Source: Candidatus Komeilibacteria bacterium (GTDB lineage Bacteria > Patescibacteriota > Patescibacteriia > UBA1558). Taken from it: 64,000 nucleotides of DNA. The translations under genes were made by a program, and so were the position numbers. Within the stretch, counting starts at the first letter, position 1, and each line of letters opens with the position of its first letter. Shown here in pieces: positions 1,541 to 64,000 of this stretch. The notes below the pieces were generated by a model that saw only the letters and a program-made list of their open reading frames with translations, ran no database searches and was not told where the DNA came from. The DNA lies in NCBI GenBank assembly GCA_048538275.1, contig JBLYPW010000001.1, positions 113,248 to 177,247 on the forward strand, read 5' to 3'.

Positions 1541-1550
1541 ATAAAATCTT

Positions 1551-2867
1551 TTAACCCTGATGTGTTTTTAATTTTTTGGAAAAAGAATAAAAGTCATCTA
1601 TTTTTATTATATTTTTCTTTCGTCCAATATTAATTTCAGCCATGTAATTGTTATAAAAATTATTTTTAAGAAGAATAAAAACCTTAAATTTTTTTATATT
1701 ATCAGGTTTTTCTCTTATATCTATTTCCGCGACATGTCCTTCTTTCCTTAAAGCATTAACTAATTTTATCACCATTTTATAATCTTTCTTCGGGTTCTCG
1801 CAAGAAACGAATACGCCAGGTTTTTTGGAGGGTAAATTTAAAAGTTTACATTCTTTCAGTTTTTCCATAGTCCCCATATAACCAAATCCAAAACCTATCG
1901 CTGGCAAATTCCTTTCCCCATACATGCTTATTAACCAATCATATCTTCCTCCCCCTGATAACGCACCTAGTTTTTTATTTTTATCAGAAACCTCAAATAT
2001 TATTCCCGTGTAAAAAGAGCCTCGAGCTATTGATAAATCAAGTCTACACATATCGTAAATACCATACCATTTTAAAATCTTTGAAATCTGGGTGAATCTT
2101 TTTAAAATTTGATCGGATTGTTTTGCTATATTTTTATTAACTTGCTTTATCTTTTGTATACAATTGATAATTGACCCGTTTAAGGAAATCATCTTGTATA
2201 TAAAAACAATTTGTTTTTTGGTTAAACCAATGTATTCAAATCTGCTATAAAATTCTTTTTTGCTAATTTTTTCTTTATCATCCACTATTTTAACCGCAGT
2301 ATAACAATCATCTGGTTTCACGCCTGCGAAGAATAAGATATTTTCTAAGAGTTTCCTGTCATTAATACTTATTTCCACTTCTTTGCCCAAACCAAGATTT
2401 TTATAAAGATTTGCGGCACACGCCAATATCTCGGCATCTGCCTCAACGGTATCACGTCCTATTATATCTATATCTGTCTGCCAAAATTCTTTTGCTCTAT
2501 CATTTTTAATTTTATCTTCCTGTCTCCATCGTTTAGATGTATCGTACCAACGAATCGGTAATTCAATTTTTTTTAATTCTTGCACCATCCTAGCTCTCGT
2601 TGGAGTTTGTTCCGGGATAAGTGTAAGATAGTTTTTTTGATTATCAAAAAAACTAAATGTCTGGCTGATTAACCCCTCCGACCAAGGAGGTTTAACTTCA
2701 TACAAACTCCTTCTTTCTATAGATGGGGCACTTATCCTTTCAAAACCGAAGCTCTCTATAGTTTTTTCAACTATATTTTGAACATGCTGCCATTTTATCC
2801 ATTCATCAGGATATATACTTTTAAAACCGTTAATTGATTTTAGATTATTATTACTATTCATGCTCAT
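1551..2867 (-). CDS. HisRS-like paralog with degenerate catalytic motif 2
   Basis: The HisRS fold is recognisable (GGGRYDWL, TLIPEQTPTRARM), but motif 2 reads RWRQEDKIKNDRAKEFWQ rather than the FRYERPQ.GR consensus. Sits tandem to hisS. Confidence 0.7.
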   Translation of the reverse strand: MSMNSNNNLKSINGFKSIYPDEWIKWQHVQNIVEKTIESFGFERISAPSIERRSLYEVKPPWSEGLISQTFSFFDNQKNYLTLIPEQTPTRARMVQELKKIELPIRWYDTSKRWRQEDKIKNDRAKEFWQTDIDIIGRDTVEADAEILACAANLYKNLGLGKEVEISINDRKLLENILFFAGVKPDDCYTAVKIVDDKEKISKKEFYSRFEYIGLTKKQIVFIYKMISLNGSIINCIQKIKQVNKNIAKQSDQILKRFTQISKILKWYGIYDMCRLDLSIARGSFYTGIIFEVSDKNKKLGALSGGGRYDWLISMYGERNLPAIGFGFGYMGTMEKLKECKLLNLPSKKPGVFVSCENPKKDYKMVIKLVNALRKEGHVAEIDIREKPDNIKKFKVFILLKNNFYNNYMAEINIGRKKNIIKIDDFYSFSKKLKTHQG

Positions 2868-4684: not shown

Positions 4685-6250
4685 ATGGACAACATAAATT
4701 TACAAACCAAAAAGATTTTTCTCTATGCTCGTAAATCCACGGACGAACCCGAAAGGCAGGTTTTGAGCATTGAAGCGCAAATGTTTGAGTTGCGGGAATT
4801 TGCCAAAAAAGAGGGTTTGAATATCGTCCGTGAATTTGTGGAAAGCAAAACCGCCAAAGAACCAGGCAGAGAGATTTTTAATGACATGATCGCAAGCATA
4901 GAGAAAAATGAAGCCGAAGGAATTTTAGCGTGGCACCCTGACCGCCTTGCTCGTAATTCCATAGACGGCGGACGAATAATTTATTTGGTGGATACTGGAA
5001 AAATTACCACGCTAAAATTTCCCACTTTTTGGTTTGATCCGACACCGCAGGGAAAATTTATGTTATCCATTGCTTTTGGGCAATCAAAATATTATGTGGA
5101 TAATCTTTCGGAAAACATAAAGAGGGGTATTCGCCAGAAATTGCGAAATGGAATATGGCCCGCTTGGGCGCCACTTGGCTATATAAACGACAAAAACGCC
5201 CGCTGTATCGCCGTGGATAAAGAAAATGCAAAGTATATCAAGCGGGCATTTGAAATGTACGCGACTGGCGAATACCCCCTCGCTCAAATCCGAAAGATTA
5301 TCAATTCCTTGGGCTTGGTTGGCAAGAAAGGCAAAAAGCTTTCCGTCTCAAATTATCAGTATATGCTCAAGAATAAAATCTATTATGGAATGATTGAATA
5401 TAACGGTGAAATGTATGACGGAAAGCATGAACCGATTATCACAAAGAAACTTTTTGATTCCGTTCAAGAAGTGATGGCGAACAAGAGCAAACCAAAATCG
5501 CCAAAACTCAAACCTTATGTTTTTAGAGGATTTTTCCGTTGTGGAGAGTGCGGTTGTTTCATTACTACCGAAACACAAAAAGGACACAATTATTTGCGTT
5601 GCACCAAACGGAAAAATCCTTGCACACAAAAATATGTCCGCGAGGAAATCATCACTTCTCAAATAAAGGAAGAAATCAAAAAAGTTTCTTTGTCTTCCGC
5701 TTGGGCAAACGCTTCAATCAATTATTTTGAAAATGAAAAAATGAAAATTGCCCAAGCGGAAAGCTCTTTCGCCCAAAAAGCGAGAGATGAGCTTGTGGAA
5801 ATAGAAACAAAGCTTGATCGTTTGCTTGATTTACAACTGGACGGCAATTTGTCGCAAGCGGAATATACCGCTAAAAAGCACAAGCTCATTCTCGCTAAAA
5901 AAGATATGGAAGAAAAAATCACCGCTTTTGGGCGAAAGAGCAATAATCGGTTCGAACTTGCCATTGCCTTTCTAAAAGAAGCCAATCAAGCCGAAAAATA
6001 CGCTCAACAAGAAAATCCCGAAAGGATTCGGGATTTTCTCAAAAAGATTGGTTCGAACTTCCGTATTGCCGACCGCACTTTGGTTTTGGATTTCAAAAAT
6101 GACTTCAAAATTGCGGAAAAATACCATGCCGAGGCGCTTTGCGCCGAGGCTGTTTCTTACGATTTCACAAAAAGTGAAAATTGGCGGAGGAGGCGGGATT
6201 CGAACCCGCGATACCTTGCGGTATGCCTGCACTCCAAGCAGGTGCACTAG
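4685..6250 (+). CDS. large serine recombinase (resolvase/invertase N-domain + recombinase domain + zinc ribbon)
   Basis: N-terminal YARKSTDEPERQVLSIEAQ (catalytic Ser region), recombinase domain, CGECG..C zinc ribbon. The 3' end runs through repeat B into tRNA-Ser antisense. Confidence 0.85.
   Translation: MDNINLQTKKIFLYARKSTDEPERQVLSIEAQMFELREFAKKEGLNIVREFVESKTAKEPGREIFNDMIASIEKNEAEGILAWHPDRLARNSIDGGRIIYLVDTGKITTLKFPTFWFDPTPQGKFMLSIAFGQSKYYVDNLSENIKRGIRQKLRNGIWPAWAPLGYINDKNARCIAVDKENAKYIKRAFEMYATGEYPLAQIRKIINSLGLVGKKGKKLSVSNYQYMLKNKIYYGMIEYNGEMYDGKHEPIITKKLFDSVQEVMANKSKPKSPKLKPYVFRGFFRCGECGCFITTETQKGHNYLRCTKRKNPCTQKYVREEIITSQIKEEIKKVSLSSAWANASINYFENEKMKIAQAESSFAQKARDELVEIETKLDRLLDLQLDGNLSQAEYTAKKHKLILAKKDMEEKITAFGRKSNNRFELAIAFLKEANQAEKYAQQENPERIRDFLKKIGSNFRIADRTLVLDFKNDFKIAEKYHAEALCAEAVSYDFTKSENWRRRRDSNPRYLAVCLHSKQVH
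6058..6186. repeat. arm B plus core aaattggcgg directly abutting the tRNA-Ser 3' end (attR-like)
   Basis: Reverse complement of 4437-4566; the core overlaps the tRNA acceptor 3' strand. Confidence 0.8.
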
Positions 6251-6269
6251 ACCACTATGCGACCCCTCC
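6182..6269 (-). tRNA. tRNA-Ser (anticodon GGA), class II with long variable arm, CCA encoded
   Basis: rc = GGAGGGGTCGCATAGTGGTCTAGTGCACCTGCTTGGAGTGCAGG...GCGGGTTCGAATCCCGCCTCCTCCGCCA. Manual fold gives a 7-bp acceptor stem, anticodon loop TTGGAGT, variable hairpin and T-loop TTCGAAT. Confidence 0.85.
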
Positions 6270-24316: not shown

Positions 24317-24410
24317 TGGCGGAGAGAGAGGGATTCGAACCCTCGCGCCGGCTAAACACCGACCTAACGGTTTAGCAAACCGTCCCCTTCAGCCGCTTGG
24401 GTATCTCTCC
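24317..24410 (-). tRNA. tRNA-Ser (anticodon GCU), class II, CCA encoded
   Basis: rc = GGAGAGATACCCAAGCGGCTGAAGGGGACGGTTTGCTAAACCGT...GAGGGTTCGAATCCCTCTCTCTCCGCCA. Anticodon loop TTGCTAA; long variable arm. Confidence 0.85.
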
Positions 24411-24939: not shown

Positions 24940-25029
24940 TGGCGGAGAGGGTGGGATTCGAACCCACGGAACCCGTGAAGGTTCAACAGTTTTCAAGACT
25001 GTCGCATTCGACCACTCTGCCACCTCTCC
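24940..25029 (-). tRNA. tRNA-Ser (anticodon UGA), class II, CCA encoded
   Basis: rc = GGAGAGGTGGCAGAGTGGTCGAATGCGACAGTCTTGAAAACTGTTGAACCTTCACGGGTTCCGTGGGTTCGAATCCCACCCTCTCCGCCA. Confidence 0.85.
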
Positions 25030-33808: not shown

Positions 33809-33883
33809 TCCGCGGTAGCTCAGCGGTAGAGCAGTTGACTGTTAATCAATTGGTCGTCGGTTCGAATCCGACCCGCGGAGCCA
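33809..33883 (+). tRNA. tRNA-Asn (anticodon GUU), CCA encoded
   Basis: TCCGCGG acceptor pairing with CCGCGGA; anticodon stem GTTGA/TCAAT with loop CTGTTAA; T-loop TTCGAAT. Confidence 0.85.
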
Positions 33884-35431
33884 TGTGAGACGAAGCGAGT
33901 TTAATGACTCGTTTTTTCTCTTATCTAAGCCATTTTCATGTAGTTCAAAAGTGGAATTTAGACGAGGCATCCATTTAAGTAAAAATTCAAAAGACGGTGT
34001 GCATTTTGTAGCTAGTTTAAGGTCTTTTAATTCAAAGTTCAAAAATATTTCACTTAAAATTTCTCTTTTCATTTCTGTGCTTGTTTTAGGATTTAAATAA
34101 TCTTTTTTAGCATTGAAAGCCAAATCGTGAATAGCGACAGCTTCTTTGTAAAAGTCTATAGTATTGTCATTTAGTTTTTTAATCTTTTTCTTGATTAATT
34201 TTTCAGTTGCTGAATACTCCTCAAACTTTTTATTATAAAATTCAAGAGTTATGTTTTTGTCTATTTTATCCTCATAAATAGATTCTAGCCTTTGTTCTGT
34301 TTTCTTAAGTTCAATATTATAAGTTTTCATTTGTGTTTCTTTGTATTCTTTTTGATCGGCAAAACTATCTTTTAAGTTTTTTTCAAGCCAATTTAAAACC
34401 CTTTCATTTTGAGGTGAAATCTTATCAAACAAAGGTAGTATCATTTCTTCCAAATCTTCCTGTCTAATATACTTTTTTTGAGAACAAGGTTTATATCTAT
34501 TACAATAGCCATACCAATGGCCTTTTTGTTTTGCCCATGTTATTGTTCCGCCACATTCACCACATTTTATTTTACCTTTAAATACTGGTAGGTGTTTGCT
34601 ATATCGTGGAGCATTAATCTGTCTTGTGATTTTACTTTGCACTTTATCAAACAATTCCTCGGTTATTATAGCCTTTTGTTTGCCTTGATATATTTTATTA
34701 TTCCACCTTAATTTGCCACAATAGAAAGGTTCTAATAAAAAACGGTGCATAGAGCTTTTGCCAACAGCTTTACCATTTCTTGACCTCAGTCCTTTGTCAT
34801 ACATAACTTCACATAGCTTTTTAAGCGAATAATTGCCTGTAGAATAAAGTTTAAACATTATTTTGATATATGGAGCCACTTCGTCATTTATGACGTGTAT
34901 TTTGTGTCCTTTTTCGCCTATGGTTTTGTAGCCAATCGGTGGTTTTGTTGGTAGCCAGCCCTCTTCAATTTTAGCTTTTTGTCCCTTTTTAACTTCTTCA
35001 CTTAAATTGTCTATATAGTTTTTTGCAAATAAAATTCTAATACCCCAATTAAGCTTTTCTTGTGATCTGGAGTCTTTATGCATAATGAGGCTATCTTTAA
35101 CTAGGTGAACTTTTCGCTCGCCGTCTTGTTTGAGCCAACTGTCAACTGCAACCATATCTTTAAAGTTTCTAGTTAAGCGGTCAGCTTTTTCACAAACAAT
35201 AATCTTGAGTTTTTTATCTTTTATATATTTCAACATCTCACCGAATTTATCTCGTTGTTTTTCGCCGCTTGCACTTTCAGATATTTTAAAAATCTTTTCA
35301 ATTACTAATTCTTTTTTATAACAATATTCTTTCAAGTATTTTTCTTGAGCAGGCAAAGAATATCCAGTTTCTTCTTGTTCTTTACTAGATACTCGACAAA
35401 ATATTATACATTTTTGTTTATTGTTTTCCAT
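33842..35431 (-). CDS. large serine recombinase (integrase of the inovirus-like element)
   Basis: N-terminal IIFCRVSSKEQEETGYSLPAQ (catalytic Ser), recombinase domain, CGECGG..C zinc ribbon. The C-terminal SDSNRRPID is encoded antisense to the tRNA-Asn T-arm (the tRNA extends from position 33842 to 33883). Confidence 0.85.
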   Translation of the reverse strand: MENNKQKCIIFCRVSSKEQEETGYSLPAQEKYLKEYCYKKELVIEKIFKISESASGEKQRDKFGEMLKYIKDKKLKIIVCEKADRLTRNFKDMVAVDSWLKQDGERKVHLVKDSLIMHKDSRSQEKLNWGIRILFAKNYIDNLSEEVKKGQKAKIEEGWLPTKPPIGYKTIGEKGHKIHVINDEVAPYIKIMFKLYSTGNYSLKKLCEVMYDKGLRSRNGKAVGKSSMHRFLLEPFYCGKLRWNNKIYQGKQKAIITEELFDKVQSKITRQINAPRYSKHLPVFKGKIKCGECGGTITWAKQKGHWYGYCNRYKPCSQKKYIRQEDLEEMILPLFDKISPQNERVLNWLEKNLKDSFADQKEYKETQMKTYNIELKKTEQRLESIYEDKIDKNITLEFYNKKFEEYSATEKLIKKKIKKLNDNTIDFYKEAVAIHDLAFNAKKDYLNPKTSTEMKREILSEIFLNFELKDLKLATKCTPSFEFLLKWMPRLNSTFELHENGLDKRKNESLNSLRLTWLRGSDSNRRPID

Positions 35432-35753
35432 AGATTTTCTTTAATATAAAAAGGGACGGTCGTAGCAACCCAACAGAATAAAGCAAAAGCTATATTTGTC
35501 AGTACGAACCGCCCCTTAATAGGGACAAATATATAATAAAAGCCTTTGCGTTTAATATTCTTAGTTGAGTTGCATTTATATATTATCATACTCATTTATT
35601 TATGCAAATTGCGTATTCTTAATTCTTTAAGCAAACTAAAGTAATCAACAAGTCCATTAGCTATTTCAGAGGCTTCTTCAAAACTTAAATCATCATCAAA
35701 TTCTTCTTTGACGATTAATTGAAATTCAATTATTGATTCTTTAGATAACATTT

Positions 35754-36530
35754 TTATAGGTGATTAAAGAATATACTTTTATCAAAGACACCAAATCTAA
35801 AAGGTATAAACTCTAAGGAATAAGCTTTGTATTCAACTTCGCCAGTCCATTCAGATTCAAATATCTTTTCAAAGACAGGTTTTACAGTATTTAAAAACTT
35901 CTCTAAAAACCTTATAGCCCAATAGCCCATAAGTTCTATGGCTTTTTTTAATGTTTGTGAGTGAAAGAATTTCTTTTTGCCAAAAGTTCTATCATCAAAC
36001 ATATCTTTACTTAAATACTTACAAACATAAGCTCCAATATTATTTACATTATTAATTTCATTAACCCTAATAAAACCCTGTCCCCAAACAAACTCAAGTT
36101 CAGATATTTCCATAAAAGGTAGCCTGCAGAGCAAATGATAATGAACAGCTCCTCTTTTTTGAAACTCAGGTACAGCTAAATATTCAAAGTCAGGGTATTT
36201 ATACAAAATACGCTTAACAAACTGATTAAATATATAATTAGCTTCTTTTAGTGAGGTAATATTCTTAGCAAAGGTTAAAGTCATGAATTTGTTTAATTGG
36301 GGGTTGGCGTTGGTTAATCGTCTTATCTCTGTTTTTGTTCGATTAAGTGAAAATATTGCTTTTTGTTTCTTTATTTCTAATTGCTTGAAAGCATTTAATT
36401 GTATGGGCTCTTTTTGAGTATTATTATTGTTATCTTTCTTTTTATAGTCTCGCCAGACCGGTTTTTTATACTTAAATACTTCAACTTGTTTGCCAGATAC
36501 CACAATTTTGAGATTGTAGGTATTTGCCAT
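35754..36530 (-). CDS. rolling-circle replication initiator (HUH endonuclease Rep)
   Basis: Motif 1 FMTLTF, motif 2 GAVHYHLL (HuH), motif 3 GAYVCKYLSKD (catalytic Tyr-x-x-Lys). Confidence 0.75.
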   Translation of the reverse strand: MANTYNLKIVVSGKQVEVFKYKKPVWRDYKKKDNNNNTQKEPIQLNAFKQLEIKKQKAIFSLNRTKTEIRRLTNANPQLNKFMTLTFAKNITSLKEANYIFNQFVKRILYKYPDFEYLAVPEFQKRGAVHYHLLCRLPFMEISELEFVWGQGFIRVNEINNVNNIGAYVCKYLSKDMFDDRTFGKKKFFHSQTLKKAIELMGYWAIRFLEKFLNTVKPVFEKIFESEWTGEVEYKAYSLEFIPFRFGVFDKSIFFNHL

Positions 36531-36690
36531 AACTGTTTTTCGTTAGATGTGTGGTTATAATCGAGTTAAGATATTGGCGTTATTTTTATATCATTTTAAG
36601 CAATCTTTTTTGCCGTCGGTGCGGGCATTCCCGCCGGACAAAAAAGCTTGCCCTTAATAAAGTGAATTATTAAAAACATGCTTAAAATAA

Positions 36691-37359
36691 TCATTTGTCT
36701 TTTATTGGTATTAGCCCAGTATTATCATTGGAATATTCTTTATTGTATTGGCGATAATATGGGAATTCGGGATACTTGATAAAATTTACCGCTTCATGAG
36801 TGTTGTAGCAGTTGGCTTTTTGTTTATTAAATAAAAAGAACCGTCTTTTAACTGCTCGTCTACGCAGGTTATCATCTTTTAAATCTTGCAGTTCAAAATA
36901 AGAGACCATAAAAAGCTTATTAAAGAGATTTCTTACTTCGGCAAAGTGTTGCCCTAGATCTCTTATTCTTTTATCTATGTTTGAAGTATGCTGAACACCA
37001 GCCCAAATATCTAAAGGGATGATTTGCCCTTTATCATTTTTTTTAACATCATGCCTATGAGCTGAGAATTTTTGTTTAGCAGACGGTGGCATTTCTTGCC
37101 ATTCCCGAGAGTCAAAATATCCTTGGGCTTCATCAATAAATATTTGTCCGCCTTTTATGTGTAGGAGTTCTGGTATTTCAGACCAAAAGAATACCTTACC
37201 TAGTGTTTCTTTTTTTATCTTTTTCTTTTCTATATATGCTGAAAAATCTAGTTTCCAATTAGCATAAACATCATAGCCTTTTAAAAACATAGAAAGCGCC
37301 TGATAAGTCATATACAGAGTTTTACCAGCCCCGGGTTTGCCTGTAATAATAGTAATCAT
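36691..37359 (-). CDS. Zot-like P-loop NTPase (inovirus pI assembly ATPase-like)
   Basis: N-terminal Walker A MITIITGKPGAGKT; Walker B IFIDEAQ; Zot-family arrangement. Confidence 0.65.
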   Translation of the reverse strand: MITIITGKPGAGKTLYMTYQALSMFLKGYDVYANWKLDFSAYIEKKKIKKETLGKVFFWSEIPELLHIKGGQIFIDEAQGYFDSREWQEMPPSAKQKFSAHRHDVKKNDKGQIIPLDIWAGVQHTSNIDKRIRDLGQHFAEVRNLFNKLFMVSYFELQDLKDDNLRRRAVKRRFFLFNKQKANCYNTHEAVNFIKYPEFPYYRQYNKEYSNDNTGLIPIKDK

Positions 37360-42634: not shown

Positions 42635-44404
42635 ATGGCAAAAAAAGATTATACAAATTGGAATAGAAAAGACTTAATCAAAGAGATTGAGCAGCTTCGC
42701 AAACGCAAAAAATATGGGCTTGTTTGGGAAAACAAACCGGAAAATGTTGTTGAGCAATGTAAAACAGAATTGCCAGTTTTGAAAGAAGTCAAAGACAAAG
42801 AAATAACTACCGACCCTGAAAAGCCAGTGAATTTATTGATTGAGGGCGACAACTATCATGCCCTTTCAGTTTTAAATTACACACACAAAGGTAAAATTGA
42901 TGTGATTTACATTGATCCGCCGTATAATACGGGAAATAAGGATTTCGTTTATAACGATCAATATGTTGATAAAGAAGATGCCTATCGACATAGTAAATGG
43001 ATCTCATTCATGGAAAAAAGACTCTCTCTCGCAAAACCATTACTGAAAACAAATGGAGCAATTTTTGTATCAATTGACGATAATGAGTACCCAAGATTAA
43101 TGATGTTAATGGAAGAAATTTTTGGAGAAAACAAACTAAAAACCGTTTGTGTGAAAATGTCAGAAGCTACTGGTGTTAAAATGGCTAGTGTAATTAAAAA
43201 TGGCAGAATCCCCAAATTAAAAGAATATTTAGTTATAGCAAAAAGAAATGGGATAAAAGATTTATATTTAGAAAAACTACCTAAAGAGCAGTGGGATAGC
43301 GAATATAAAACAATTATCCTAAATACTACAGAGAAAGAAATAAATAAAATCAAAGAAATAAGAGATGACGAGGAAAGAACCGAGGAAGATATTAATTTTT
43401 GTAATAAAAAAATAAGCAGATGGAAAACCTGCTCATTATCTGAATATTTCTCACAAAACAATATCTCAAAAAAAGAGCAGGATGATTTTAAATATAAAAA
43501 TGCGTGGAGAATACTGCAAATTGCCACACTAACAGGTGGTTCTAGAGATAAGGCTGCTGACATTAAAAATAGTTTTTCGAAAGAAGTGCCTGCTTTTTTC
43601 TGTTTAACAACACCACAAAAGAAAATGTATTTGATAAGCGGAACTTTTAATCATGAAACAAAACTTCCCCGATGCAAAGTTTTATTTGCAGATGATTATT
43701 TAACTATACACCCCGGTGATTTTTGGACAGACATAAAAACAACTGGCTTAGATAATGAGGGTGGCGTTGATTTCAGAAATGGTAAAAAGCCAATAAAATT
43801 ATTAGAAAAAGTAGTTAAAACTTACGAAAACAAAAATATTACTGTTTTAGATTTTTTTGCAGGTTCAGGAACATCTGCGGAGGCGGTCTTAAAACTAAAT
43901 AATGAAGATAAAGGAAACAGAAAGTTTATTTTATGTAGTTATAACGAAGAAAATGGAAATGGGAAAATTGTTGATGAATATTGTTATCCAAGAGTAGAAA
44001 AAGCTATCCGTGGCTATAACACCAAAAAAGGTTATGGTGGAAATCTTAAATATTACAAAACTGCTTTTGTTCCAGCCGAACCAACAGACAAAAACAAAAT
44101 TGCAATGACCGAAAAAGCAACGGAAATGCTTTGTGTAAAAGAAGATACTTTTGAAGAAGTAAAATCAACAAAGCAATATAAAATTTTTCGAAATAAGAAA
44201 CGATATACCGGGATTGTTTTCGATCATCAAGCGATAGATAATTTTAAAAAGGAAATTGTAAAAATTGACGGCAAATTCAGTCTTTATATTTTCTCGCTCG
44301 GCGATGATACTTTTGACGAGGAGTTTGAAGATATGAAGAAAAAAGTAAAATTATCACCAATACCGGAAGCGATACTACGAGTTTATCGCAGAATATTTAA
44401 ATAA
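42635..44404 (+). CDS. mod: type III restriction-modification methyltransferase (Mod; beta-class N6-adenine MTase)
   Basis: Motif IV IYIDPPYNTGNKDF lies N-terminal to motif I FFAGSGTSAEA (beta-class order). Confidence 0.8.
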   Translation: MAKKDYTNWNRKDLIKEIEQLRKRKKYGLVWENKPENVVEQCKTELPVLKEVKDKEITTDPEKPVNLLIEGDNYHALSVLNYTHKGKIDVIYIDPPYNTGNKDFVYNDQYVDKEDAYRHSKWISFMEKRLSLAKPLLKTNGAIFVSIDDNEYPRLMMLMEEIFGENKLKTVCVKMSEATGVKMASVIKNGRIPKLKEYLVIAKRNGIKDLYLEKLPKEQWDSEYKTIILNTTEKEINKIKEIRDDEERTEEDINFCNKKISRWKTCSLSEYFSQNNISKKEQDDFKYKNAWRILQIATLTGGSRDKAADIKNSFSKEVPAFFCLTTPQKKMYLISGTFNHETKLPRCKVLFADDYLTIHPGDFWTDIKTTGLDNEGGVDFRNGKKPIKLLEKVVKTYENKNITVLDFFAGSGTSAEAVLKLNNEDKGNRKFILCSYNEENGNGKIVDEYCYPRVEKAIRGYNTKKGYGGNLKYYKTAFVPAEPTDKNKIAMTEKATEMLCVKEDTFEEVKSTKQYKIFRNKKRYTGIVFDHQAIDNFKKEIVKIDGKFSLYIFSLGDDTFDEEFEDMKKKVKLSPIPEAILRVYRRIFK

Positions 44405-44415
44405 TTGGAAAAACT

Positions 44416-46629
44416 ATGCAACTAAAAGATTATCAAACTACGGCTATAAAAAAACTCCTCACCAGAAGCAAGGAATTGCTGGCACAAAGTGGCGAGAAGA
44501 AAGTTATTTTCAAAGCTCCGACTGGATCGGGCAAAACCATAATGACGGCGGAATTTTTGAAGCAACTCATTGACGACAAAGAAATCAAAACCCCCCTTTC
44601 GTTTATTTGGACTGCTCCAAGAAAATTACACACACAAAGCAAGGAAAAGCTGGAAAAGTATTATGAAGATACAAGAGCTTTGGAATGTTCCGACTTTGAA
44701 GATTTGACCGACAAACAAATTGGCGAAAATGAAATTTTGTTTTTGAATTGGGAAAGCATAAACAAAAAAGACAAAAATACAATTGTAAAAGAGAATGAGA
44801 AAGAATTTTACCTCGGCAAGATTGTTGAGAATACAAAGGAAGAAGGACGAGAAATCGTCTTGATTATTGACGAAAGTCATCACCATGCCACAAGCGAAAT
44901 CTCGCAAGATTTAATTTCAGATATCGCCCCACGACTAACGATTGAAGTTTCCGCTACTCCTGTTATTTCAAATCCAGACGAGATTGTTTCTGTGCCTTTA
45001 GAAGATGTAAAACTGGAAGGGATGATAAAAAAATCAGTTGTTCTTAATCCAAATTTTAAAAATGTTTTATCTGGCGACAGCTTAAAAACCAAGCTTGCTG
45101 ACGGAACTGATGCAATGGTGCTTGAAGAAGCACTAAAGAAACGAGAAGAAATCGCAAAAGCATACAAAGAAGCAGGAATTGATATAAACCCGCTTTTACT
45201 TATCCAGCTACCAGACCGAAAAACACAAGCGGAAGATCAAGTCAAAAATGATGTTGTGCGGATTTTGAAAGATAAATACGGAATGACAACGGAAAACGGT
45301 AGACTAGCGATTTACTTATCAGAAGAAAAAGAAAATCTTGAGAATATCGCAAAAAATAATCACGAAACTGAAGTTTTGATTTTTAAGCAAGCAATCGCCT
45401 TAGGTTGGGATTGTCCTCGCGCTCAAGTTTTGGTGCTTTTCAGAGATTGGAAAAGTCTTACATTTTCGGTCCAAACAGTCGGGCGAATTATGCGTATGCC
45501 CGAGCCAGACACAGGTCACTACAAACAAGAAATATTGAATCACGGCTTTGTGTTTACAAATCTTGCTGATATTGAAATCAAGGAAGACATGGCAAGAAGC
45601 TATGTAACGATATATACCAGCCAAAGAATTGAAAGCTACAAGCCAATCAAATTAGAATCTGTTTACCGCTTGCGACAACGAGAAAAGACTCGTTTAAGTC
45701 CGAAATTTATCAATATCTTTTTAGATGAGGCTAAAAAGTACGATCTCGAAAAGAAAATTGAAACCAAAGGACAAAAACTGGAACTGTCTTTAATTTCTGA
45801 TTACGAGGCGGAAGGCGTTGATAAATTGGCAAACGAGGAAATCAAAGGCGAAGCCAAAATCAACACTGAAAACGAAGCTGATTTACAAAAGCTATATGAC
45901 TTTTTTGTAAAGAATAATCTATCGCCTTTTTATCCCGAAGATCGCTCAATCGGCAGACTGAAAGAAGCGATTTATTACTTTTTCAGAATGCGCCTTGGCA
46001 TGGAATACACCGACCGTTTTGCTGAAATCATCAATATTGTATTAAGTCCGAAAAATAGCCAACATTTTATAAATGTTATTGATAGCACCAAAGAAAAATA
46101 TATTGCCGAAACTCAAAAACGAGAAGCAGAACTGCAAAAATCAGCTGACTGGGAATTGCCTGAAATGTTGAACTATGGCGGAAACTTTACGGAGTTTAAA
46201 ACCAAATTATCAGCAATGAAGCCGTTTTATTACGACAACAAATGGAAAACTGAAGAAGCATTTATCAAATTTCTTGAAAAATCAGATCAAATTGAATGGT
46301 GGTTTAAAAACGGCGACCGAGACGCTACATTTTTTGCCGTGCCCTATGTTGAAAATGACGAGCAAAAACCTTTTTATGTTGATTTCATTGTAAAATATAA
46401 AGACGGAAAAATTGCTTTGTTTGATACGAAAAGCGGAAACACAATCAAAGACGCACGAGAAAAAAGCGATGGTTTGCAGGAATATACAAAAAAGAACAAA
46501 AACATTACCGGTGGAATTATGGCAAACACAAATTCCAAAGATTTTTCTGGTCGCTGGATGTGCTACAAGGGACAAGGAAATGAACTTAATCCTGATGACT
46601 TTTCTAATTGGGAATTGTTGGAAGTATAA
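44416..46629 (+). CDS. res: type III restriction enzyme Res subunit (SF2 helicase + PD-(D/E)xK nuclease)
   Basis: Helicase motif I KAPTGSGKT; motif II IIDESHH; C-terminal VDFIVKYKDG...FDTK nuclease motif. Confidence 0.8.
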   Translation: MQLKDYQTTAIKKLLTRSKELLAQSGEKKVIFKAPTGSGKTIMTAEFLKQLIDDKEIKTPLSFIWTAPRKLHTQSKEKLEKYYEDTRALECSDFEDLTDKQIGENEILFLNWESINKKDKNTIVKENEKEFYLGKIVENTKEEGREIVLIIDESHHHATSEISQDLISDIAPRLTIEVSATPVISNPDEIVSVPLEDVKLEGMIKKSVVLNPNFKNVLSGDSLKTKLADGTDAMVLEEALKKREEIAKAYKEAGIDINPLLLIQLPDRKTQAEDQVKNDVVRILKDKYGMTTENGRLAIYLSEEKENLENIAKNNHETEVLIFKQAIALGWDCPRAQVLVLFRDWKSLTFSVQTVGRIMRMPEPDTGHYKQEILNHGFVFTNLADIEIKEDMARSYVTIYTSQRIESYKPIKLESVYRLRQREKTRLSPKFINIFLDEAKKYDLEKKIETKGQKLELSLISDYEAEGVDKLANEEIKGEAKINTENEADLQKLYDFFVKNNLSPFYPEDRSIGRLKEAIYYFFRMRLGMEYTDRFAEIINIVLSPKNSQHFINVIDSTKEKYIAETQKREAELQKSADWELPEMLNYGGNFTEFKTKLSAMKPFYYDNKWKTEEAFIKFLEKSDQIEWWFKNGDRDATFFAVPYVENDEQKPFYVDFIVKYKDGKIALFDTKSGNTIKDAREKSDGLQEYTKKNKNITGGIMANTNSKDFSGRWMCYKGQGNELNPDDFSNWELLEV

Positions 46630-48389
46630 TTATGAGAGTAAAATATCTTACAATTCGGAATTTTCGTGGCATAGACAAATTGGAGAATTTGGAAATTTCT
46701 AATTTGAATACTTTTGTCGGAAAAAATGATGCTGGCAAATCAGCAATCCTTAGAGCTTTAGCGTGTTTTTTTGACGTCAAGAAATTTGATATAAAAGATG
46801 TTTTTAAGGGAAAACAAGATAATGACGTAACTTCCATAGAAATATCTTTTGAACCGTCAGTTGAAATTGATGATCTTGCTTTAGACAGTAGAAAACTGAT
46901 TACGATCAAAAAAGAATTTGTCGTTGTTAATGGTAAAGCAAAATCATCTGAATACTACCTATCTAATGACTACATTGATGAAAAGTATCAAAATCTTTGG
47001 AATAAAAAGGAACAAGATTTAAATCAAATTATTTCTGATCTTGGAGAGGAACCAAACAAATCAGGACGAGGTAAGAAAAATATAATTCGAATAGATCAAA
47101 TTAAAACGGCACTCGCAAGAAATATTAGAACGGACACCTACCATGAACTTGAAGACTTTTTAAAAAACATTGAAAAAACCTACAAAATCAGTTTACCTGA
47201 ATACTCCCTTTTTGACGCCGAGCAAGATTTGAATATTGAAGCGACAAATTTTCAATCTCAATTTAAGCCGATTATTTCAGCATATTTTGAAACTACAAAG
47301 GACAAAACCGCAGAAATTGAGAAGGGTCTTAAACAAGACTTGGCGACTGAATTTGAAGAGATTAGAAAGTATATGACAAAAAATGTTTCTGGGTTGAAAA
47401 AACTTAATCCTACAACGGATTTTGATTGGTCCAAATCGTTAAAAAAGTTTGATTTAAACTTGGAATTTGAGGGTCAAAATTTTGATGTTCCAATTTCTCA
47501 TAAAGGCACCGGCTTTAAAAGATTGTTAATGGTTGCGTATTTTGAATATTTAGCAAACAAGAAAAGCATAAAAAATCAAATTTTCGCCATTGAAGAGCCG
47601 GAAACATATCTTCACCCCTCTGCACAGCAAGACCTTCTAAACTCTATTGTAAGAATTTCTGAAGATTCACAGTTTTTTCTAACAACACATTCACCGGTTT
47701 TTGCTGGAGCAACTGACGGAAAAAATTCAATTTTAGTTATAAAAGATGAACTTGGTATATCTCATTATTCAAGAGAGGAACAAGATATTATAGATCAAAT
47801 TATAAATGAACTGGGAATAAGACCAGACTACAATCTCTTAAAAGAAATTAAGTATTTAATTTTTGTCGAGGGTGTAGACGACATTCACTTTTTAAAAACA
47901 TACGCAAAAACCGTACTAAATAAAGATTTGGAAAATGACAAGATACTTTGTGTTATTGGTGGTGGCGGATCATTAAAAAATTATGCAGACCTTAATTTAT
48001 TTAAAAAACTAAAAGGCAATAATCTTTATTCCGTGATGGTTGATGGGGATGACCAGTCAAACGGAAAAGCTAAATGGTGCGAAAGAATAAAAGCTAAATG
48101 CGATGAAGATACAGCTGATTTTAAGAAATTGAGTAAGAGAGAAATTGAAAATTATTGTCATCCTCAGGCAATATGTAGAAAATGCACAGATTTAGATATT
48201 TCTAAAATTGCCATTCAAGATGACACTGACGTTGCAAAACACCTGAAAGAGATAGGTTTAGTAAAGAATTTTAAAAATGATCTAAATATTGAAGTTTTTA
48301 ATGAAATGACAAAAGAAGAGTGGGAGCAAACAGATTCAAATAATGAAGTTAAAGTTTTTATCGAAGCAATATACACAAAAATATCATGA
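46608..48389 (+). CDS. OLD-family nuclease (N-terminal ABC-type ATPase + C-terminal Toprim)
   Basis: Walker [16 protein letters not shown]; ABC signature/D-loop region [19 protein letters not shown]; Toprim-like [11 protein letters not shown] and MVDGDD. Overlaps res by 22 nt. The start may be the internal MRVKYL (46632). Confidence 0.7.
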
Positions 48390-49645
48390 ACGAAATAATA
48401 TGTCCAAAATGTAAAAAAGTTTTCAAAGTCGATGAGGCTGGTTTTGCTGATATACTAAAACAGGTGCGCGACCATAAATTTGAAGAAGAGTTACAGGAAC
48501 GATTAAGCATTGCTGAAAAAGAAAAAGAAAATGCTATTAAATTAGCTGAATCTAATCTAAAAAATACATTACAAGAGGAGTTAACGAAGAAAGATAAGGA
48601 GCTATCAGAATTAAGAGTCGAAAAGGATCGTAATCTTGCGGAACAATTGGCAAAAAAAGAAGCCGAGCTCACCCAAATGAAATCAAAGATTGATAAGGCA
48701 GAAGTAGAGCAAAAACTCAGTGTCACTCAAGCAGTTAATACAGTAGAAAAAGAACGAGATGATCTTAGGGTTAAATTGCAAAGTAAAGAACAAGAAATAC
48801 AACTTCGAGAGGTTTCATTAAAAGAAAAATATGAAAATGAATTAAAAACAAAGGACGAAGTTATTGAGAGGTATAAAGACATGAAGCTAAAGCTTTCTAC
48901 CAAAATGGTTGGCGAAACTTTAGAGCAACACTGTGAAACAGAATTCAATAAATTACGTGCTACTGCCTTTCAAAAAGCTTATTTTGAAAAAGATAATGAT
49001 GCTAGTAGTGGTAGTAAGGGGGATTATATTTATCGCGAAACTGATGAAGCAAAAAATGAAATTATCTCTATTATGTTTGAAATGAAAAATGAGGGAGATG
49101 AAACTGCTACAAAAAAACGAAATGAAGACTTTTTAAAAGAATTAGATAAAGATCGTACCGAGAAAAAATGTGAATACGCAGTTCTTGTTTCGCTTTTAGA
49201 GGCAGATAGTGAATACTATAATACTGGTATTGTTGATGTTTCTCATAAATATCCAAAGATGTATGTTGTCCGACCACAATTTTTTATTCCTATTATTACA
49301 TTGCTTCGTAATGCTTCTTTGAAATCAATGCAATATAAAACAGAGTTAGCGATAGTAAAAGCACAAAACATTGATGTAACTAATTTTGAAAATCAACTTA
49401 ATGATTTTCGTGATTCATTTGGTCGGAATTGGCGCTTAGCTTCAGAAAAATTTGCAACCGCTATTGATAGTATTGATAAATCAATTGCTCAGTTACAAAA
49501 AACAAAAGAAAACCTCTTACGATCAGAAGATAATTTAAGAATTGCAAACAACAAAGCAGACGAATTAACAGTAAAAAAATTAACAAGAGGTAATCCCACA
49601 ATGACAGCTAAATTCGCAGAGATTAATGAAATTGACAAAAAATAA
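48386..49645 (+). CDS. zinc-ribbon + long coiled-coil protein (DUF2130-like), operonic with the OLD-family gene
   Basis: N-terminal [10 protein letters not shown] zinc ribbon and extended heptad-rich sequence. Family assignment is from memory only. The start overlaps the upstream stop by 4 nt. Confidence 0.45.
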
Positions 49646-62726: not shown

Positions 62727-63227
62727 AGGCTAAATCAAATCAAACCTTCCTTTTTATAATAAAAGACGCTGGCTATTTAGCCGGCGCCTTATTTTTAAAG
62801 TTTTTACCAAATTCCCCATGGTGGCATGGGGCAGCCAACATTGTAACCCAGAACTGACATTATAAATGGAATGGCGAACGTACCCATGAGAAGGTAGTTA
62901 TAGAGTTTCTGAAATATACCTGTTTTTTCTTTCACGAAGCGAACCTCCCTTGATTATTTTTTGACCTATCTGGTGATGTGCAGGTACCATATGAACGCTG
63001 ATATTAGCATCCTTTAAAGAAACTTAGCAAAAAAGTGTAAAGTTTTCAAGGTAGCTAGACATAACATAAAGGTTAAAGTAAAAATATCAGGGTAGTGATA
63101 TAGGCTATATAGAAAGATATGATAAACACGTTTGACAAATAAATTTCTATTCGCTAAAGTGGGTAGGCTTGTTGTGCAAGCCACATTGTTCTTTAAATAA
63201 TTTTTGTAGAAAGGAGTATTGGCTAAC

Positions 63228-63458
63228 GGGCGCATAGCTCAATGGTAGAGTGCTTTTTGCCTTGATGTGGCTATGAGCATCCATATAGCTTATTATCCGA
63301 AAGCGTCAATCTTTATAGATTGGAGAGTGAGGGAGAATTACCCTCGTGTGGCGATATGCATTCGCTGTGTATCAGTAAATAGTTGCATTGAGGACAGTTA
63401 ATTAACTGTGGTATGAATACTCGGAAAGTGGGTATCGGTTCGAATCCGATTGCGTCCA
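63228..63458 (+). tRNA. candidate tRNA gene interrupted by a ~158-nt intervening sequence at the anticodon-arm position (possible intron)
   Basis: The 5' part GGGCGCATAGCTCAATGGTAGAGTGC is a canonical acceptor + D-arm. The 3' part GAAAGTGGGTATCGGTTCGAATCCGATTGCGTCCA gives a T-arm (ATCGG/CCGAT, loop TTCGAAT) and an acceptor strand that pairs 7/7 with the 5' end. No CCA is encoded, and the anticodon is not resolvable. Confidence 0.4.
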
Positions 63459-63627
63459 CAAGTATTTAGTTGATTGCATTGTTTAAGGGGTAGAATCTTA
63501 TCTGGTCTTCAATCTTGAAGATGCGAATCTTTGAGGTTATTTTGAGTTCTAGGTTGACAATATTTGTATTTAACTGTATAATTTATTGTTGTTTTGTACT
63601 TTGTAAATTACACTAAAAGGAGGAAAA

Positions 63628-64000
63628 ATGACCAGACTGAGAAAAGATCTACTAAGTAAGCTTGGTTTCAAAATAGCTATCTTTGAAGATCAAGAGTCGG
63701 AAATGGCAGCCGCCCGTCATGCCGTAGAGGCGATGGGTTTAATCCCCGTACCCATGCACAGGTTTAATGATTTCAACGATTTCAGCATAAACAATGATTC
63801 TTTATTGATCGGAGTTTTAGCTGATATCCACATTGCTGGCGTGCCAGAAGGTCTGGGTTTGATAACCAATTGCTTGCAATATGATATACCGGTTTGTGCG
63901 GTAACATATGTAAAGGGGCACGATCTTGACAACTGGAAAGGGCCATTGGTCCAGTTATTAAAACAACAAGGCGTGATTTTCTTTACCAGCAAGGTAGATG
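63628..64000 (+). CDS. hypothetical protein, 5' partial (continues beyond the window)
   Basis: A strong RBS AAAGGAGGAAAAATG precedes an open frame running to the window end (MTRLRKDLLSKLGFKIAIFEDQ...). Confidence 0.45.
   Translation, partial: MTRLRKDLLSKLGFKIAIFEDQESEMAAARHAVEAMGLIPVPMHRFNDFNDFSINNDSLLIGVLADIHIAGVPEGLGLITNCLQYDIPVCAVTYVKGHDLDNWKGPLVQLLKQQGVIFFTSKVD

What the first reader, a model, noticed from the sequence alone, without database searches (positions are those of the whole stretch)
63228..63458. tRNA-like gene whose two halves are separated by a ~158-nt intervening sequence
A canonical 5' acceptor + D-arm lies at 63228-63253. A T-arm + 3' acceptor strand lies at about 63421-63458. 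The two pair perfectly as a 7-bp acceptor stem (with one G-U) but are separated by 158 nt where the anticodon arm should be. No CCA is encoded.

This is the architecture of an intron-containing tRNA, but the insert is shorter than typical group I introns, which are about 200 nt or more. Alternatives are a non-canonical intron, a small inserted element, or a degenerate tRNA.
Basis: partly seen in the sequence, partly recalled or inferred. Interest (0 to 1): 0.55.

Follow-up and report, generated by a model that had tools for sequence, protein, structure and literature searches.

The report
tRNA-like gene with unclassified 160-nt insert
A candidate-phylum (Komeilibacteria) bacterium carries a well-formed alanine-type tRNA gene whose anticodon loop is replaced by a folded ~160-base RNA insert that matches no known intron or RNA family; it could be a new small intron or a tRNA-shaped non-coding RNA, and with no relatives found this could not be settled.

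Summary
Positions 63228-63458 (+) hold one split tRNA-like gene. With the gap allowed, Rfam's tRNA model scores it 40.1 bits (E 4e-7). The acceptor stem (7/7 pairs, G3·U70, A73), D-arm, T-arm, variable loop and a 5-bp anticodon stem are all intact. Where 7 loop bases belong there are 166 nt. No CCA is encoded, whereas the five other tRNA genes in the window all encode it.

The "group I intron" reading found no support. RF00028, a profile of 16 bacterial tRNA introns, a custom covariance model and core-motif scans were all negative. The insert has no ORF, terminal repeats or extra copies.

The insert is strongly structured on the + strand: a 15-bp helix with five G·U pairs (p≈0.009) closes a multi-hairpin domain.

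No single excision gives a canonical anticodon arm. The possible anticodons (GCC, GUC) conflict with the alanine-type acceptor stem.

No homologue was found, but only exact-pattern scans were available.

My best guess (about 0.36) is a tRNA-Ala-derived, tRNA-shaped RNA that keeps the insert. The rivals are a novel or miniaturised intron (about 0.3) and a dead gene (about 0.2). The finding is moderately interesting and unresolved.

The parts
63132..63160 (+). Sigma-70-like promoter candidate (TTGACA, 17 nt, TAAAGT) 68 nt upstream of the tRNA 5' end
   Evidence: 10 of 12 consensus matches. This is a consensus match only, not proof of function.
63228..63234 (+). 5' acceptor strand GGGCGCA (G1-G3, with G3 pairing to U70)
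   Evidence: pairs 7/7 with 63451-57.
63237..63251 (+). D-arm: stem GCUC/GAGU (G10·U25), loop AAUGGUA containing G18 G19
   Evidence: Rfam alignment; coordinates.
63253..63257 (+). Anticodon-stem 5' strand CUUUU. G63252 is N26.
   Evidence: It pairs with GAAAG at 63424-28 and can extend to 7-9 bp (63251-59 / 63422-30).
63258..63423 (+). 166-nt insert in place of the 7-nt anticodon loop: no ORF, 41% GC, no match to any Rfam family
   Evidence: no family; only 44- and 48-aa spurious ORFs; no other copy in the window; MFE -49.1 kcal/mol, z -2.6.
63260..63274 (+). Helix A 5' strand, CCUUGAUGUGGCUAU
   Evidence: 15 consecutive pairs with 63379-93, five of them G·U; 0.9% of 2000 dinucleotide shuffles reach 15 bp; the longest stem on the reverse strand is 11 bp.
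63275..63378 (+). Inner multi-hairpin domain. MFE hairpins at 63288-304, 63306-323, 63327-347 and 63353-373. An alternative hairpin at 63350-366 has the loop UAUGCAU.
   Evidence: These are single-sequence predictions only.
63379..63393 (+). Helix A 3' strand, AUAGUUGCAUUGAGG
63394..63409 (+). Perfect 16-nt palindromic hairpin, ACAGUU-AAUU-AACUGU
63410..63423 (+). 14-nt tail GGUAUGAAUACUCG, ending in G next to the anticodon-stem 3' strand. It can pair with 63374-77 (AGUA/UACU) or 63275-85 to give pseudoknot-type folds.
   Evidence: Its resemblance to group I J8/7-P7' is not above chance.
63424..63433 (+). Anticodon-stem 3' strand GAAAG and variable loop UGGGU
63434..63450 (+). T-arm: AUCGG / UUCGAAU / CCGAU
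63451..63458 (+). 3' acceptor strand UGCGUCC (U70 opposite G3) and discriminator A73. The next bases are CAAG, so no CCA is encoded.
   Evidence: All five other tRNA genes in the window encode CCA.

Best explanation
Positions 63228-63458(+) are one gene for a tRNA-shaped RNA derived from a Patescibacteria-type tRNA-Ala.

Shown:
- The tRNA body is complete. It has a 7-bp acceptor stem with the alanine identity set (G3·U70, A73, G2:C71), a canonical D-arm and T-arm, a 5-nt variable loop and a 5-bp anticodon stem.
- The 7-nt anticodon loop is replaced by 166 nt of RNA with no ORF.
- On the + strand that insert folds on its own. A 15-bp G·U-rich helix closes a multi-hairpin junction, followed by a 6-bp hairpin and a 14-nt tail.
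- The insert is not a recognisable group I intron or any other Rfam family.

Inferred, and the mechanism I commit to at modest confidence:
- The insert is not precisely spliced out to make a decoding tRNA. It is kept, or at most trimmed.
- The transcript is cut at its 5' end by RNase P, trimmed at its 3' end and given CCA by the CCA-adding enzyme.
- The tRNA body provides processing signals, stability and possibly charging by AlaRS.
- The inserted domain sits where the anticodon would be, blocks decoding on the ribosome, and is the functional or ligand-binding part.
- In working principle this makes it a tRNA mimic or scaffold, like the tRNA-like domains of tmRNA or of YrlA Y RNAs. It is not a member of either family.
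For: - The exons look like a maintained RNA. Rfam tRNA scores 40.1 bits without any anticodon loop. All stems are perfectly paired and the tertiary-interaction bases are present: U8, A14, G18, G19, A21, A15/U48, G46 and T-loop UUCGAAU.
- The acceptor stem carries the Ala identity set. The nearest tRNAs among 1581 collected are Patescibacteria-type tRNA-Ala(GGC), with the same GGGCNCA/UGNGUCCA acceptor and a CUUCC/GGAAG anticodon stem against CUUUU/GAAAG here. That difference preserves pairing.
- A brute-force search of all single excisions finds none that gives N26 + 5 bp + a 7-nt loop with both U33 and a purine at position 37.
- The only frames with U33 and R37 drop N26 and give anticodon GCC or GUC, which conflicts with G3·U70/A73.
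- The insert has significant + strand-specific structure. Helix A is 15 bp with 5 G·U and no mismatch (p about 0.009), against a longest stem of 11 bp on the reverse strand. Fold z-scores are -2.6 for the insert and -3.3 for the whole gene.
- All group I tests were negative.
- The missing CCA sets this gene apart from the five other tRNAs in the window and six in a related Komeilibacteria genome.
Against: - There is only one sequence. No homologue was found, so there is no covariation and no evidence of conservation.
- No known partner protein is nearby. The window has no SmpB and no Rsr/TROVE protein, and the next gene is an ORFan.
- In this phylum the commonest thing interrupting a tRNA anticodon loop is a group I intron, and divergent ones that escape RF00028 are documented (PMC13011429).
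- A U(-1)/G(omega) pair can be chosen at two junctions. One of them is a U·G wobble inside helix A (U63263·G63390). This is what an intron would show, although about 40% of random cases also offer such a pair (10.1101/2020.01.27.920355).
- No function can be proposed for the inserted domain.
Confidence: 0.36

Rival explanations
1. It is a genuine intron. The insert is excised from the pre-tRNA and the exons are ligated, giving a working tRNA. The excision could be by self-splicing (a miniaturised or very divergent group I-like ribozyme, or a new small ribozyme) or by host enzymes. The most likely junctions are after U63262/U63263 and after G63423/G63424, giving the loop UUGCCUG or UUGCCUU. Alternatively the loop could be UUGCCGG or UUGUCGG.
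For: - The insert sits exactly in the anticodon loop of an otherwise perfect tRNA.
- The host phylum is rich in tRNA group I introns, most without homing endonucleases. Some are too divergent for RF00028 (PMC13011429).
- U(-1)/G(omega) is available at two of the eight junctions, one with a U·G wobble preceded by three exon pairs in helix A.
- The strand order helix A, inner domain, AGUA (63374-77), helix A 3' strand, hairpin, 8-nt linker, UACU (63418-21) can be drawn as P3-[P4-P6]-P7-P3'-P8-J8/7-P7'.
Against: - Four independent tests give no group I signal.
- In the P7 register that matches canonical introns, the G-binding G-C pair is replaced by a C/C mismatch (by inspection).
- There is no room for P1/IGS, P2 or P9 in the canonical order.
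- At 153-165 nt the insert is below the 184-nt minimum of 333 surveyed bacterial tRNA introns.
- Every possible product is non-canonical: either a 4-bp anticodon stem or no N26, and U37 at the junctions that obey U/G.
- Every possible product pairs a Gly or Asp anticodon with an Ala acceptor stem.
- No BHB motif is present.
Confidence: 0.3
2. It is a dead gene. A tRNA-Ala-type gene copy was inactivated by an insertion, for example a former intron that lost its catalytic core or an unrelated piece of DNA, and it has not yet been deleted.
For: - No canonical anticodon loop can be recovered.
- CCA is missing, unlike every other tRNA gene seen in this lineage.
- The gene lies in a poorly conserved region next to an ORFan with no homologue among 5.8 billion proteins. 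Synteny is lost even in the closest relative, which is 78% identical in the flanking peptidase.
- No homologue of the insert was found.
Against: - The 65 exon bases show no decay: all 21 stem pairs and the conserved tertiary bases are intact.
- Helix A keeps 15/15 pairs. All five of its non-Watson-Crick pairs are G·U on the + strand, which suggests selection on the RNA.
- Candidate-phylum genomes are compact and tend to lose pseudogenes quickly. This is general knowledge and was not tested here.
- A promoter-like site lies upstream.
Confidence: 0.2
3. It is an RNase III-type intervening sequence, like those of 23S rRNA. Helix A would be cut by RNase III without religation, leaving a two-piece tRNA-like molecule held together by the acceptor and anticodon stems.
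For: - A long duplex (15 bp, plus the extended 7-9-bp anticodon stem) closes the insert at the tip of a hairpin. This is the geometry of rRNA intervening sequences.
- Short insertions (<200 bp) in candidate-phylum rRNA genes that match neither intron type and have no ORF are frequent. Those authors suggest some are RNase III-cleaved intervening sequences (PMC11270868).
Against: - A tRNA cut there has no anticodon, so cutting does not rescue decoding.
- A 15-bp G·U-rich helix is a marginal RNase III substrate.
- I know of no precedent in tRNA.
Confidence: 0.08
4. It is a very compact tmRNA-like molecule: alanine-charged, with the insert carrying a tag reading frame.
For: - G3·U70/A73, a T-arm and an internal domain in place of the anticodon arm form the tmRNA ground plan.
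Against: - ARAGORN's tmRNA search finds nothing even at relaxed thresholds.
- No Rfam tmRNA model hits beyond the shared T-arm: 10.9 bits against a gathering score of 47.
- The D-arm is a canonical tRNA D-arm, unlike that of tmRNA.
- No plausible tag ORF with a hydrophobic C-terminus is present (translation by inspection frames).
- No smpB gene is in the window.
Confidence: 0.03

Closest known systems
Group I intron-interrupted tRNA genes of Patescibacteria (Nakagawa et al. 2026, PMC13011429; tFind survey, bioRxiv 10.1101/2020.01.27.920355)
   Same: - Same phylum.
- The insert has no ORF and sits in the anticodon loop of an otherwise normal tRNA gene.
- A U(-1)/G(omega) pair is available.
- Standard annotation misses the gene.
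   Different: - There is no group I core by RF00028, a custom covariance model, a profile HMM or motif scans.
- The insert is 153-165 nt, against a known minimum of 184 nt.
- There is no canonical P1/P2/P9.
- The spliced product would be non-canonical and would pair an Ala acceptor stem with a Gly or Asp anticodon.
- An Ala-type host tRNA is not among the Patescibacteria cases in that paper's Table 1.
tmRNA (SsrA)
   Same: - An alanine-identity acceptor stem and T-arm, with a large structured domain where the anticodon arm would be.
- Thought to derive from tRNA-Ala.
   Different: - The D-arm here is canonical.
- There is no tag ORF and no match to any tmRNA model.
- The length is 231 nt.
- CCA is not encoded.
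- There is no smpB neighbour.
YrlA / bacterial Y RNAs (Rfam RF02553)
   Same: - A non-decoding RNA that uses a tRNA-like module (acceptor, D and T arms) joined to a long helix extending from the anticodon-stem position.
   Different: - YrlA is circularly permuted relative to tRNA, with its ends in the long stem.
- RF02553 does not hit this locus, although it readily hits L008 and L223.
- No rsr gene is in the window.
Uncharacterised short insertions and RNase III-type intervening sequences in candidate-phylum rRNA genes (PMC11270868)
   Same: - Same group of organisms.
- Under 200 nt, no ORF, no intron signature.
- Located at the tip of a helix and closed by a long duplex.
   Different: - The host RNA is a tRNA, where removal without ligation destroys the anticodon.
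- Nothing is known about processing here.
Archaeal bulge-helix-bulge tRNA introns
   Same: - A protein-spliced intron in or near the anticodon loop, of comparable size range.
   Different: - No bulge-helix-bulge motif can be drawn at the junctions.
- The host is a bacterium with sigma-70-type promoters and Shine-Dalgarno sites.

Membership tests
tRNA (RF00005) | Cloverleaf body: 7-bp acceptor stem, D-arm with G18 G19, T-arm with UUCRANY loop, variable loop | tested here: met
   40.1 bits against a gathering score of 29, models 1-71 aligned. One search gives the coordinates.
tRNA (RF00005) | 5-bp anticodon stem closing a 7-nt loop with U33 and a purine at position 37 | tested here: not met
   The stem is present, but 166 nt lie between its strands. 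No single excision gives a canonical arm with both U33 and R37.
tRNA-Ala | G3·U70 with A73 (AlaRS identity) and an NGC anticodon | tested here: inconclusive
   The acceptor identity set is present. No junction yields an NGC anticodon in frame. A UGC triplet occurs only in an internal hairpin loop (63350-66) with A at position 33.
Group I intron | Match to the conserved catalytic core (RF00028, or a model specific to bacterial tRNA introns) | tested here: not met
   No hit at E<=10. nhmmer profile: no hit. Custom CM R1 with filters off: no hit on the insert (no independent positive control for R1 was available).
Group I intron | R/S elements forming P7 with the G-binding G-C pair and a bulged A, plus a conserved J8/7 | tested here: not met
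   PSSM scores are reached by 37-91% of shuffles. In the canonical register the G-binding pair is C/C (by inspection).
Group I intron | U(-1) in a U·G wobble of P1, and a terminal omega-G | tested here: inconclusive
   U63263·G63390 and G63423/24 can be chosen. The partner strand lies 127 nt downstream rather than in a 5' P1 hairpin, and chance alone gives such a pair in about 40% of cases.
Group I intron | P3-P7 pseudoknot with P8 between P3' and P7' | tested here: inconclusive
   The topology can be drawn, but with a 4-bp P7, from a single sequence and with no covariation.
Group I intron | Self-splicing with guanosine and Mg2+ | not testable with these tools
   Needs an in vitro assay.
tmRNA | Recognition by tmRNA models, a tag reading frame with a resume codon, and pseudoknots | tested here: not met
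   ARAGORN -m finds nothing. The Rfam permuted-tmRNA model gives 10.9 bits on the T-arm only. No plausible tag ORF.
YrlA Y RNA | RF02553 match, permuted tRNA-like module, rsr neighbourhood | tested here: not met
   No hit, whereas L008 and L223 score 43-65 bits. No TROVE protein in the window.
Archaeal BHB intron | Two 3-nt bulges separated by a 4-bp helix at the splice sites | tested here: not met
   Inspection of all stems of 5 bp or more around the junctions shows no such motif.
RNase III-type intervening sequence | Long duplex closing the insert at a hairpin tip; cleavage without ligation | tested here: inconclusive
   A 15-bp duplex is present. Cleavage is not testable here.
Transposable element / MITE | Terminal inverted repeats, target-site duplication, multiple copies | tested here: not met
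   No other copy in the window. No terminal repeats or duplication at the junctions.

The most novel reading that the evidence does not exclude
The insert is a functional RNA of a new kind, carried on an alanine-type tRNA body. It would be one of two things. Either it is a new, very small self-splicing ribozyme or intron class (about 155-165 nt, below the size of any known group I intron). Or it is a new class of tRNA-mimic non-coding RNA (aminoacylatable, non-decoding) in candidate-phylum bacteria. If it is spliced, the product would be an Ala-accepting tRNA reading glycine (GCC) codons, that is, a natural mistranslating tRNA.
Probability: 0.25. Interest if true: 0.85.

Novelty: new variant of a known kind. 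Interest (0 to 1): 0.5.

Why it matters
Bacterial tRNA genes are known to be interrupted almost only by group I introns, and rarely by group II introns. A well-formed tRNA gene with a structured insert that has no ORF and fails every group I test would point to one of three things:
- a self-splicing core smaller than the known minimum;
- a protein-dependent or otherwise new way of removing tRNA inserts in bacteria;
- a new tRNA-shaped non-coding RNA in the tmRNA/Y-RNA tradition.

It also has a practical side. Default tRNA finders miss the gene, which affects tRNA-based completeness estimates for candidate-phylum genomes. The mismatch between the Ala acceptor stem and the Gly/Asp anticodon would bear on natural mistranslation if the RNA is spliced.

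All of this rests on one sequence. Without expression data or homologues it stays a lead, not a discovery.

Tried and rejected
**Group I intron**
- RF00028 was negative at E<=10 in two small-region searches.
- An nhmmer profile of 16 bacterial tRNA introns taken from PMC13011429 Tables S3-S5 was negative.
- A covariance model R1 from six Patescibacteria introns, run with filters off, gave only noise of 7 bits or less elsewhere and nothing on the insert.
- I noticed an apparent resemblance of the 3' tail (AUGAAUACUC) to the IA-type S element (AUGAGAUAGUC), and of UGUGUA to the R element. I rejected it as evidence because PSSM scans are matched by 37-91% of shuffles.

**Other known RNA families**
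- There were no hits on either strand, including tmRNA, YrlA, small ribozymes and riboswitches.

**Homologue hunting, all without a homologue**
- blastn against phages and plasmids.
- A genome contigs pattern scan, which saturated with tandem-tRNA false positives.
- Two metagenome scans: 0 hits and 46 unrelated hits.
- Seven viral scans.
- Synteny through the flanking peptidase, the downstream ORFan, which hit only itself, and the upstream OmdA gene.
- Exact look-up of spurious ORFs across the locus.
- All DNA scans of the big collections need exact matches, so this absence is weak evidence.

**Other ideas tested and dropped**
- Mobile element or MITE: no terminal repeats, target duplication or extra copies.
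- Two-intron reading with the internal hairpin GGCGA-UAUGCAU-UCGCU as an Ala(UGC) anticodon arm: rejected, because position 33 is A, there is no BHB, and the junctions do not follow U/G.
- Structure prediction of the ORFan neighbour gave pLDDT 42, which is unusable.
- The jumbo-phage locus L184 looked like a second case, but ARAGORN does not call it and it shares no similarity with this insert.

Full report
**1. What is there**

The window comes from a Candidatus Komeilibacteria (Patescibacteria) genome. The flanking peptidase is 100% identical to an NCBI protein of that name on a 487-kb contig, and the upstream OmdA protein is MFW0837543.1.

At 63228-63458(+), Rfam's tRNA model aligns end to end at 40.1 bits (gathering score 29, E 4.1e-7), provided the search region is small. 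It places a 168-nt insertion where model positions 31-39 belong. ARAGORN in intron mode also calls a single tRNA with a 161-nt intron. Default ARAGORN and whole-window cmscan miss it.

Verified parts:
- acceptor strands GGGCGCA / UGCGUCC (7/7 pairs, G3·U70)
- D-arm GCUC-AAUGGUA-GAGU
- G26
- anticodon stem CUUUU / GAAAG
- variable loop UGGGU
- T-arm AUCGG-UUCGAAU-CCGAU
- discriminator A73, followed by CAAG

The usual tertiary-interaction bases are all present. The anticodon stem exists, so the insert replaces only the loop. The T-arm begins at 63434.

CCA is not encoded. All five other tRNA genes in the window, and six in a related Komeilibacteria contig, encode it.

**2. The insert**

Between the two strands of the anticodon stem lie 166 nt (63258-63423; 41% GC against 51% in the exons). 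There is no ORF beyond spurious 44- and 48-codon frames. The window holds no second copy, and there are no terminal repeats or target duplication.

The insert folds well: MFE -49.1 kcal/mol and z = -2.6 for the insert alone, z = -3.3 for the whole gene.

The dominant feature is a 15-bp helix (63260-74 with 63379-93). It has five G·U pairs and no mismatch. Only 0.9% of 2000 dinucleotide shuffles reach that length, and the reverse strand manages only 11 bp. The helix is therefore real and specific to the tRNA strand.

The helix encloses about 104 nt predicted to form three or four hairpins. It is followed by a perfect 16-nt palindromic hairpin (63394-409) and a 14-nt tail ending in G. The anticodon stem can extend inward by two more pairs.

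**3. Is it a group I intron?**

The prior is favourable. About 40% of Patescibacteria genomes carry group I introns. They sit in tRNA anticodon loops, most lack homing endonucleases, and some are too divergent for RF00028 (PMC13011429).

Every test I could run was negative:
- RF00028 gave no hit at E<=10 in 501-nt and 186-nt searches.
- An nhmmer profile of 16 bacterial tRNA introns found nothing.
- A covariance model from six Patescibacteria introns, run with filters off, found nothing on the insert.
- PSSMs of the R and S core elements score no better than shuffles.

By eye the strand order can be drawn as P3-[P4-P6]-P7-P3'-P8-J8/7-P7'. A U·G wobble (U63263·G63390) with a terminal G is also available. 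These points are weak for several reasons:
- The drawing was made after the fact, from one sequence.
- P7 would be only 4 bp, and the canonical G-binding pair would be replaced by C/C.
- There is no room for P1/IGS, P2 or P9 in the canonical order.
- At 153-165 nt the insert is below the 184-nt minimum of 333 surveyed introns.
- About 40% of random cases offer a U/G pair.

**4. What would splicing make?**

A brute-force search over all single excisions finds no product with N26, a 5-bp stem and a 7-nt loop that has both U33 and a purine at 37.

The frames that do give U33 and R37 drop N26, or equivalently leave a 4-bp stem. They yield the loops UUGUCGG (GUC, ARAGORN's call) or UUGCCGG (GCC). 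The junctions that obey U/G yield UUGCCUG or UUGCCUU, with U37.

All of these put a Gly or Asp anticodon on a body whose acceptor stem carries the full alanine identity set. Relative to those, the anticodon stem differs by a change that preserves pairing (CUUCC/GGAAG against CUUUU/GAAAG).

**5. Other known families**

- tmRNA: not found by ARAGORN or Rfam. The D-arm is canonical, there is no tag ORF, and there is no smpB in the window.
- YrlA: no hit here, although the same search readily finds YrlA arrays in L008 and L223. There is no Rsr protein in the window.
- Bulge-helix-bulge motif: none.
- RNase III-type intervening sequence: the geometry (a long duplex at a hairpin tip) is present. Short unclassified insertions without ORFs are common in candidate-phylum rRNA genes (PMC11270868). 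However, cutting without ligation would leave a tRNA with no anticodon.

**6. Homologues**

None was found, despite the following:
- blastn against phages and plasmids;
- one genome scan, two metagenome scans and seven viral pattern scans;
- three synteny routes.

The closest relative in the protein collection is only 78% identical in the flanking peptidase and is not syntenic. The downstream gene is an ORFan. Because the scans of the large collections need exact matches, this absence says little. It does mean there is no covariation evidence for any structure.

**7. Verdict**

The gene is real, and both the tRNA body and the insert look maintained at the RNA level. "Intron-containing tRNA" describes the architecture, but the mechanism is not shown.

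I rank the readings as follows:
- (a) About 0.36: a tRNA-Ala-derived, tRNA-shaped RNA that keeps the insert, working like the tRNA-like modules of tmRNA or YrlA without being a member of either family.
- (b) About 0.30: a novel or miniaturised intron giving an unusual tRNA.
- (c) About 0.20: a recently inactivated gene.
- (d) About 0.08: an RNase III-type intervening sequence.
- (e) About 0.03: a compact tmRNA.

The steps that are shown are the sequence anatomy, the significance of the tRNA match, the helix statistics, the negative family tests and the junction enumeration. The steps that are inferred are transcription, processing, charging and whether the insert is kept or removed.

The case deserves an RNA-level experiment and a sensitive comparative search. 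Until then it is a moderately interesting lead.

Noticed in passing
window 33809-37359: A large serine recombinase gene (33842-35431, minus strand) overlaps the 3' end of tRNA-Asn (33809-33883). It is followed by genes for a Rep (ORF2/G2P) protein and a Zot-like ATPase. This looks like an integrated inovirus-like element at a tRNA gene.
   Followed up: partly
window 4685-6269: A second large serine recombinase (4685-6250, plus strand) overlaps tRNA-Ser(GGA) at 6182-6269 on the opposite strand. This may be another tRNA-associated integration module.
   Followed up: no
window 239-2867: Two adjacent HisRS-like paralogues lie at 239-1540 and 1551-2867. The second lacks the anticodon-binding domain hit, which is HisZ-like.
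   Followed up: no
window 42635-49645: A cluster that looks like a restriction or defence system: N6/N4 DNA methylase, ResIII/SNF2 helicase, an AAA_15/AbiEii-like ATPase and DUF2130.
   Followed up: no
window 63554-64000 (gene continues beyond the window): Directly downstream of the tRNA-like gene, a perfect TTGACA-17-TATAAT promoter drives a 166-aa ORFan (P0122). It has no homologue among 5.8 billion proteins and no Pfam hit. The AlphaFold model is unusable, with pLDDT 42.
   Followed up: partly
window 63156-63182: The 10-mer AAAGTGGGTA (3' strand of the anticodon stem plus the variable loop of the tRNA-like gene, 63425-34) recurs 269 nt upstream at 63156-65. There it is followed by a 5-bp/7-nt-loop hairpin (GGCTT-GTTGTGC-AAGCC) with T-arm-like geometry. 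It could be chance, since about 0.8 such repeats are expected, or a decayed tRNA 3' fragment.
   Followed up: no
L211 5656-5872; L228 455-678; L199, L200, L208, L237 (metagenome contigs): These contigs hold nested tRNA genes: a complete tRNA gene lies inside the intervening sequence of another tRNA gene, sometimes two levels deep. Complementary leader and trailer sequences (for example CACCCCGTTAGAT / ATCTAACGGGG) recall archaeal split or multi-intron tRNAs.
   Followed up: no
L008 34-784 (Nannocystis sp. RBIL2) and L223 508-640: L008 holds four tandem YrlA (Y RNA-like) genes scoring 50-65 bits, just under the gathering score of 69. Their tRNA-like modules mimicked an Ala-type tRNA with a 190-nt insert in my pattern scan.
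   Followed up: partly
L047 3739-3962 (Flavobacterium jejuense): An Ala-type (G3·U70) acceptor and D-arm are separated by about 150 nt from an anticodon-arm-like hairpin, a T-arm and a matching 3' acceptor strand. The spacer contains an extra T-arm-like hairpin. No tRNA, YrlA or intron model hits it.
   Followed up: no
L184 (jumbo-phage contig IMGVR_UViG_3300044712_001937), minus strand about 1411-1616: tRNA-like halves with a 7/7 complementary acceptor stem (GGGGAUA/UAUCCCU) and a CAU triplet after the D-arm are separated by about 150 nt. Neither ARAGORN nor Rfam calls it, and it is not similar to the insert studied here.
   Followed up: partly
L124 1810-1950 and L125 1547-1690 (viral contigs): Phage tRNA arrays in which tRNA-like 5' halves (acceptor plus D-arm) are followed by 60-200 nt of non-tRNA sequence sharing the motif CGATTTTCAGCCGTT before a T-arm.
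   Followed up: no
window 24320-24375 and 24943-24994 (+): The Rfam model 'Plastid-psbl-rps4' hits the strand antisense to two tRNA-Ser genes at 41-46 bits, below its gathering score of 68. These are almost certainly artefacts of tRNA complementarity.
   Followed up: no
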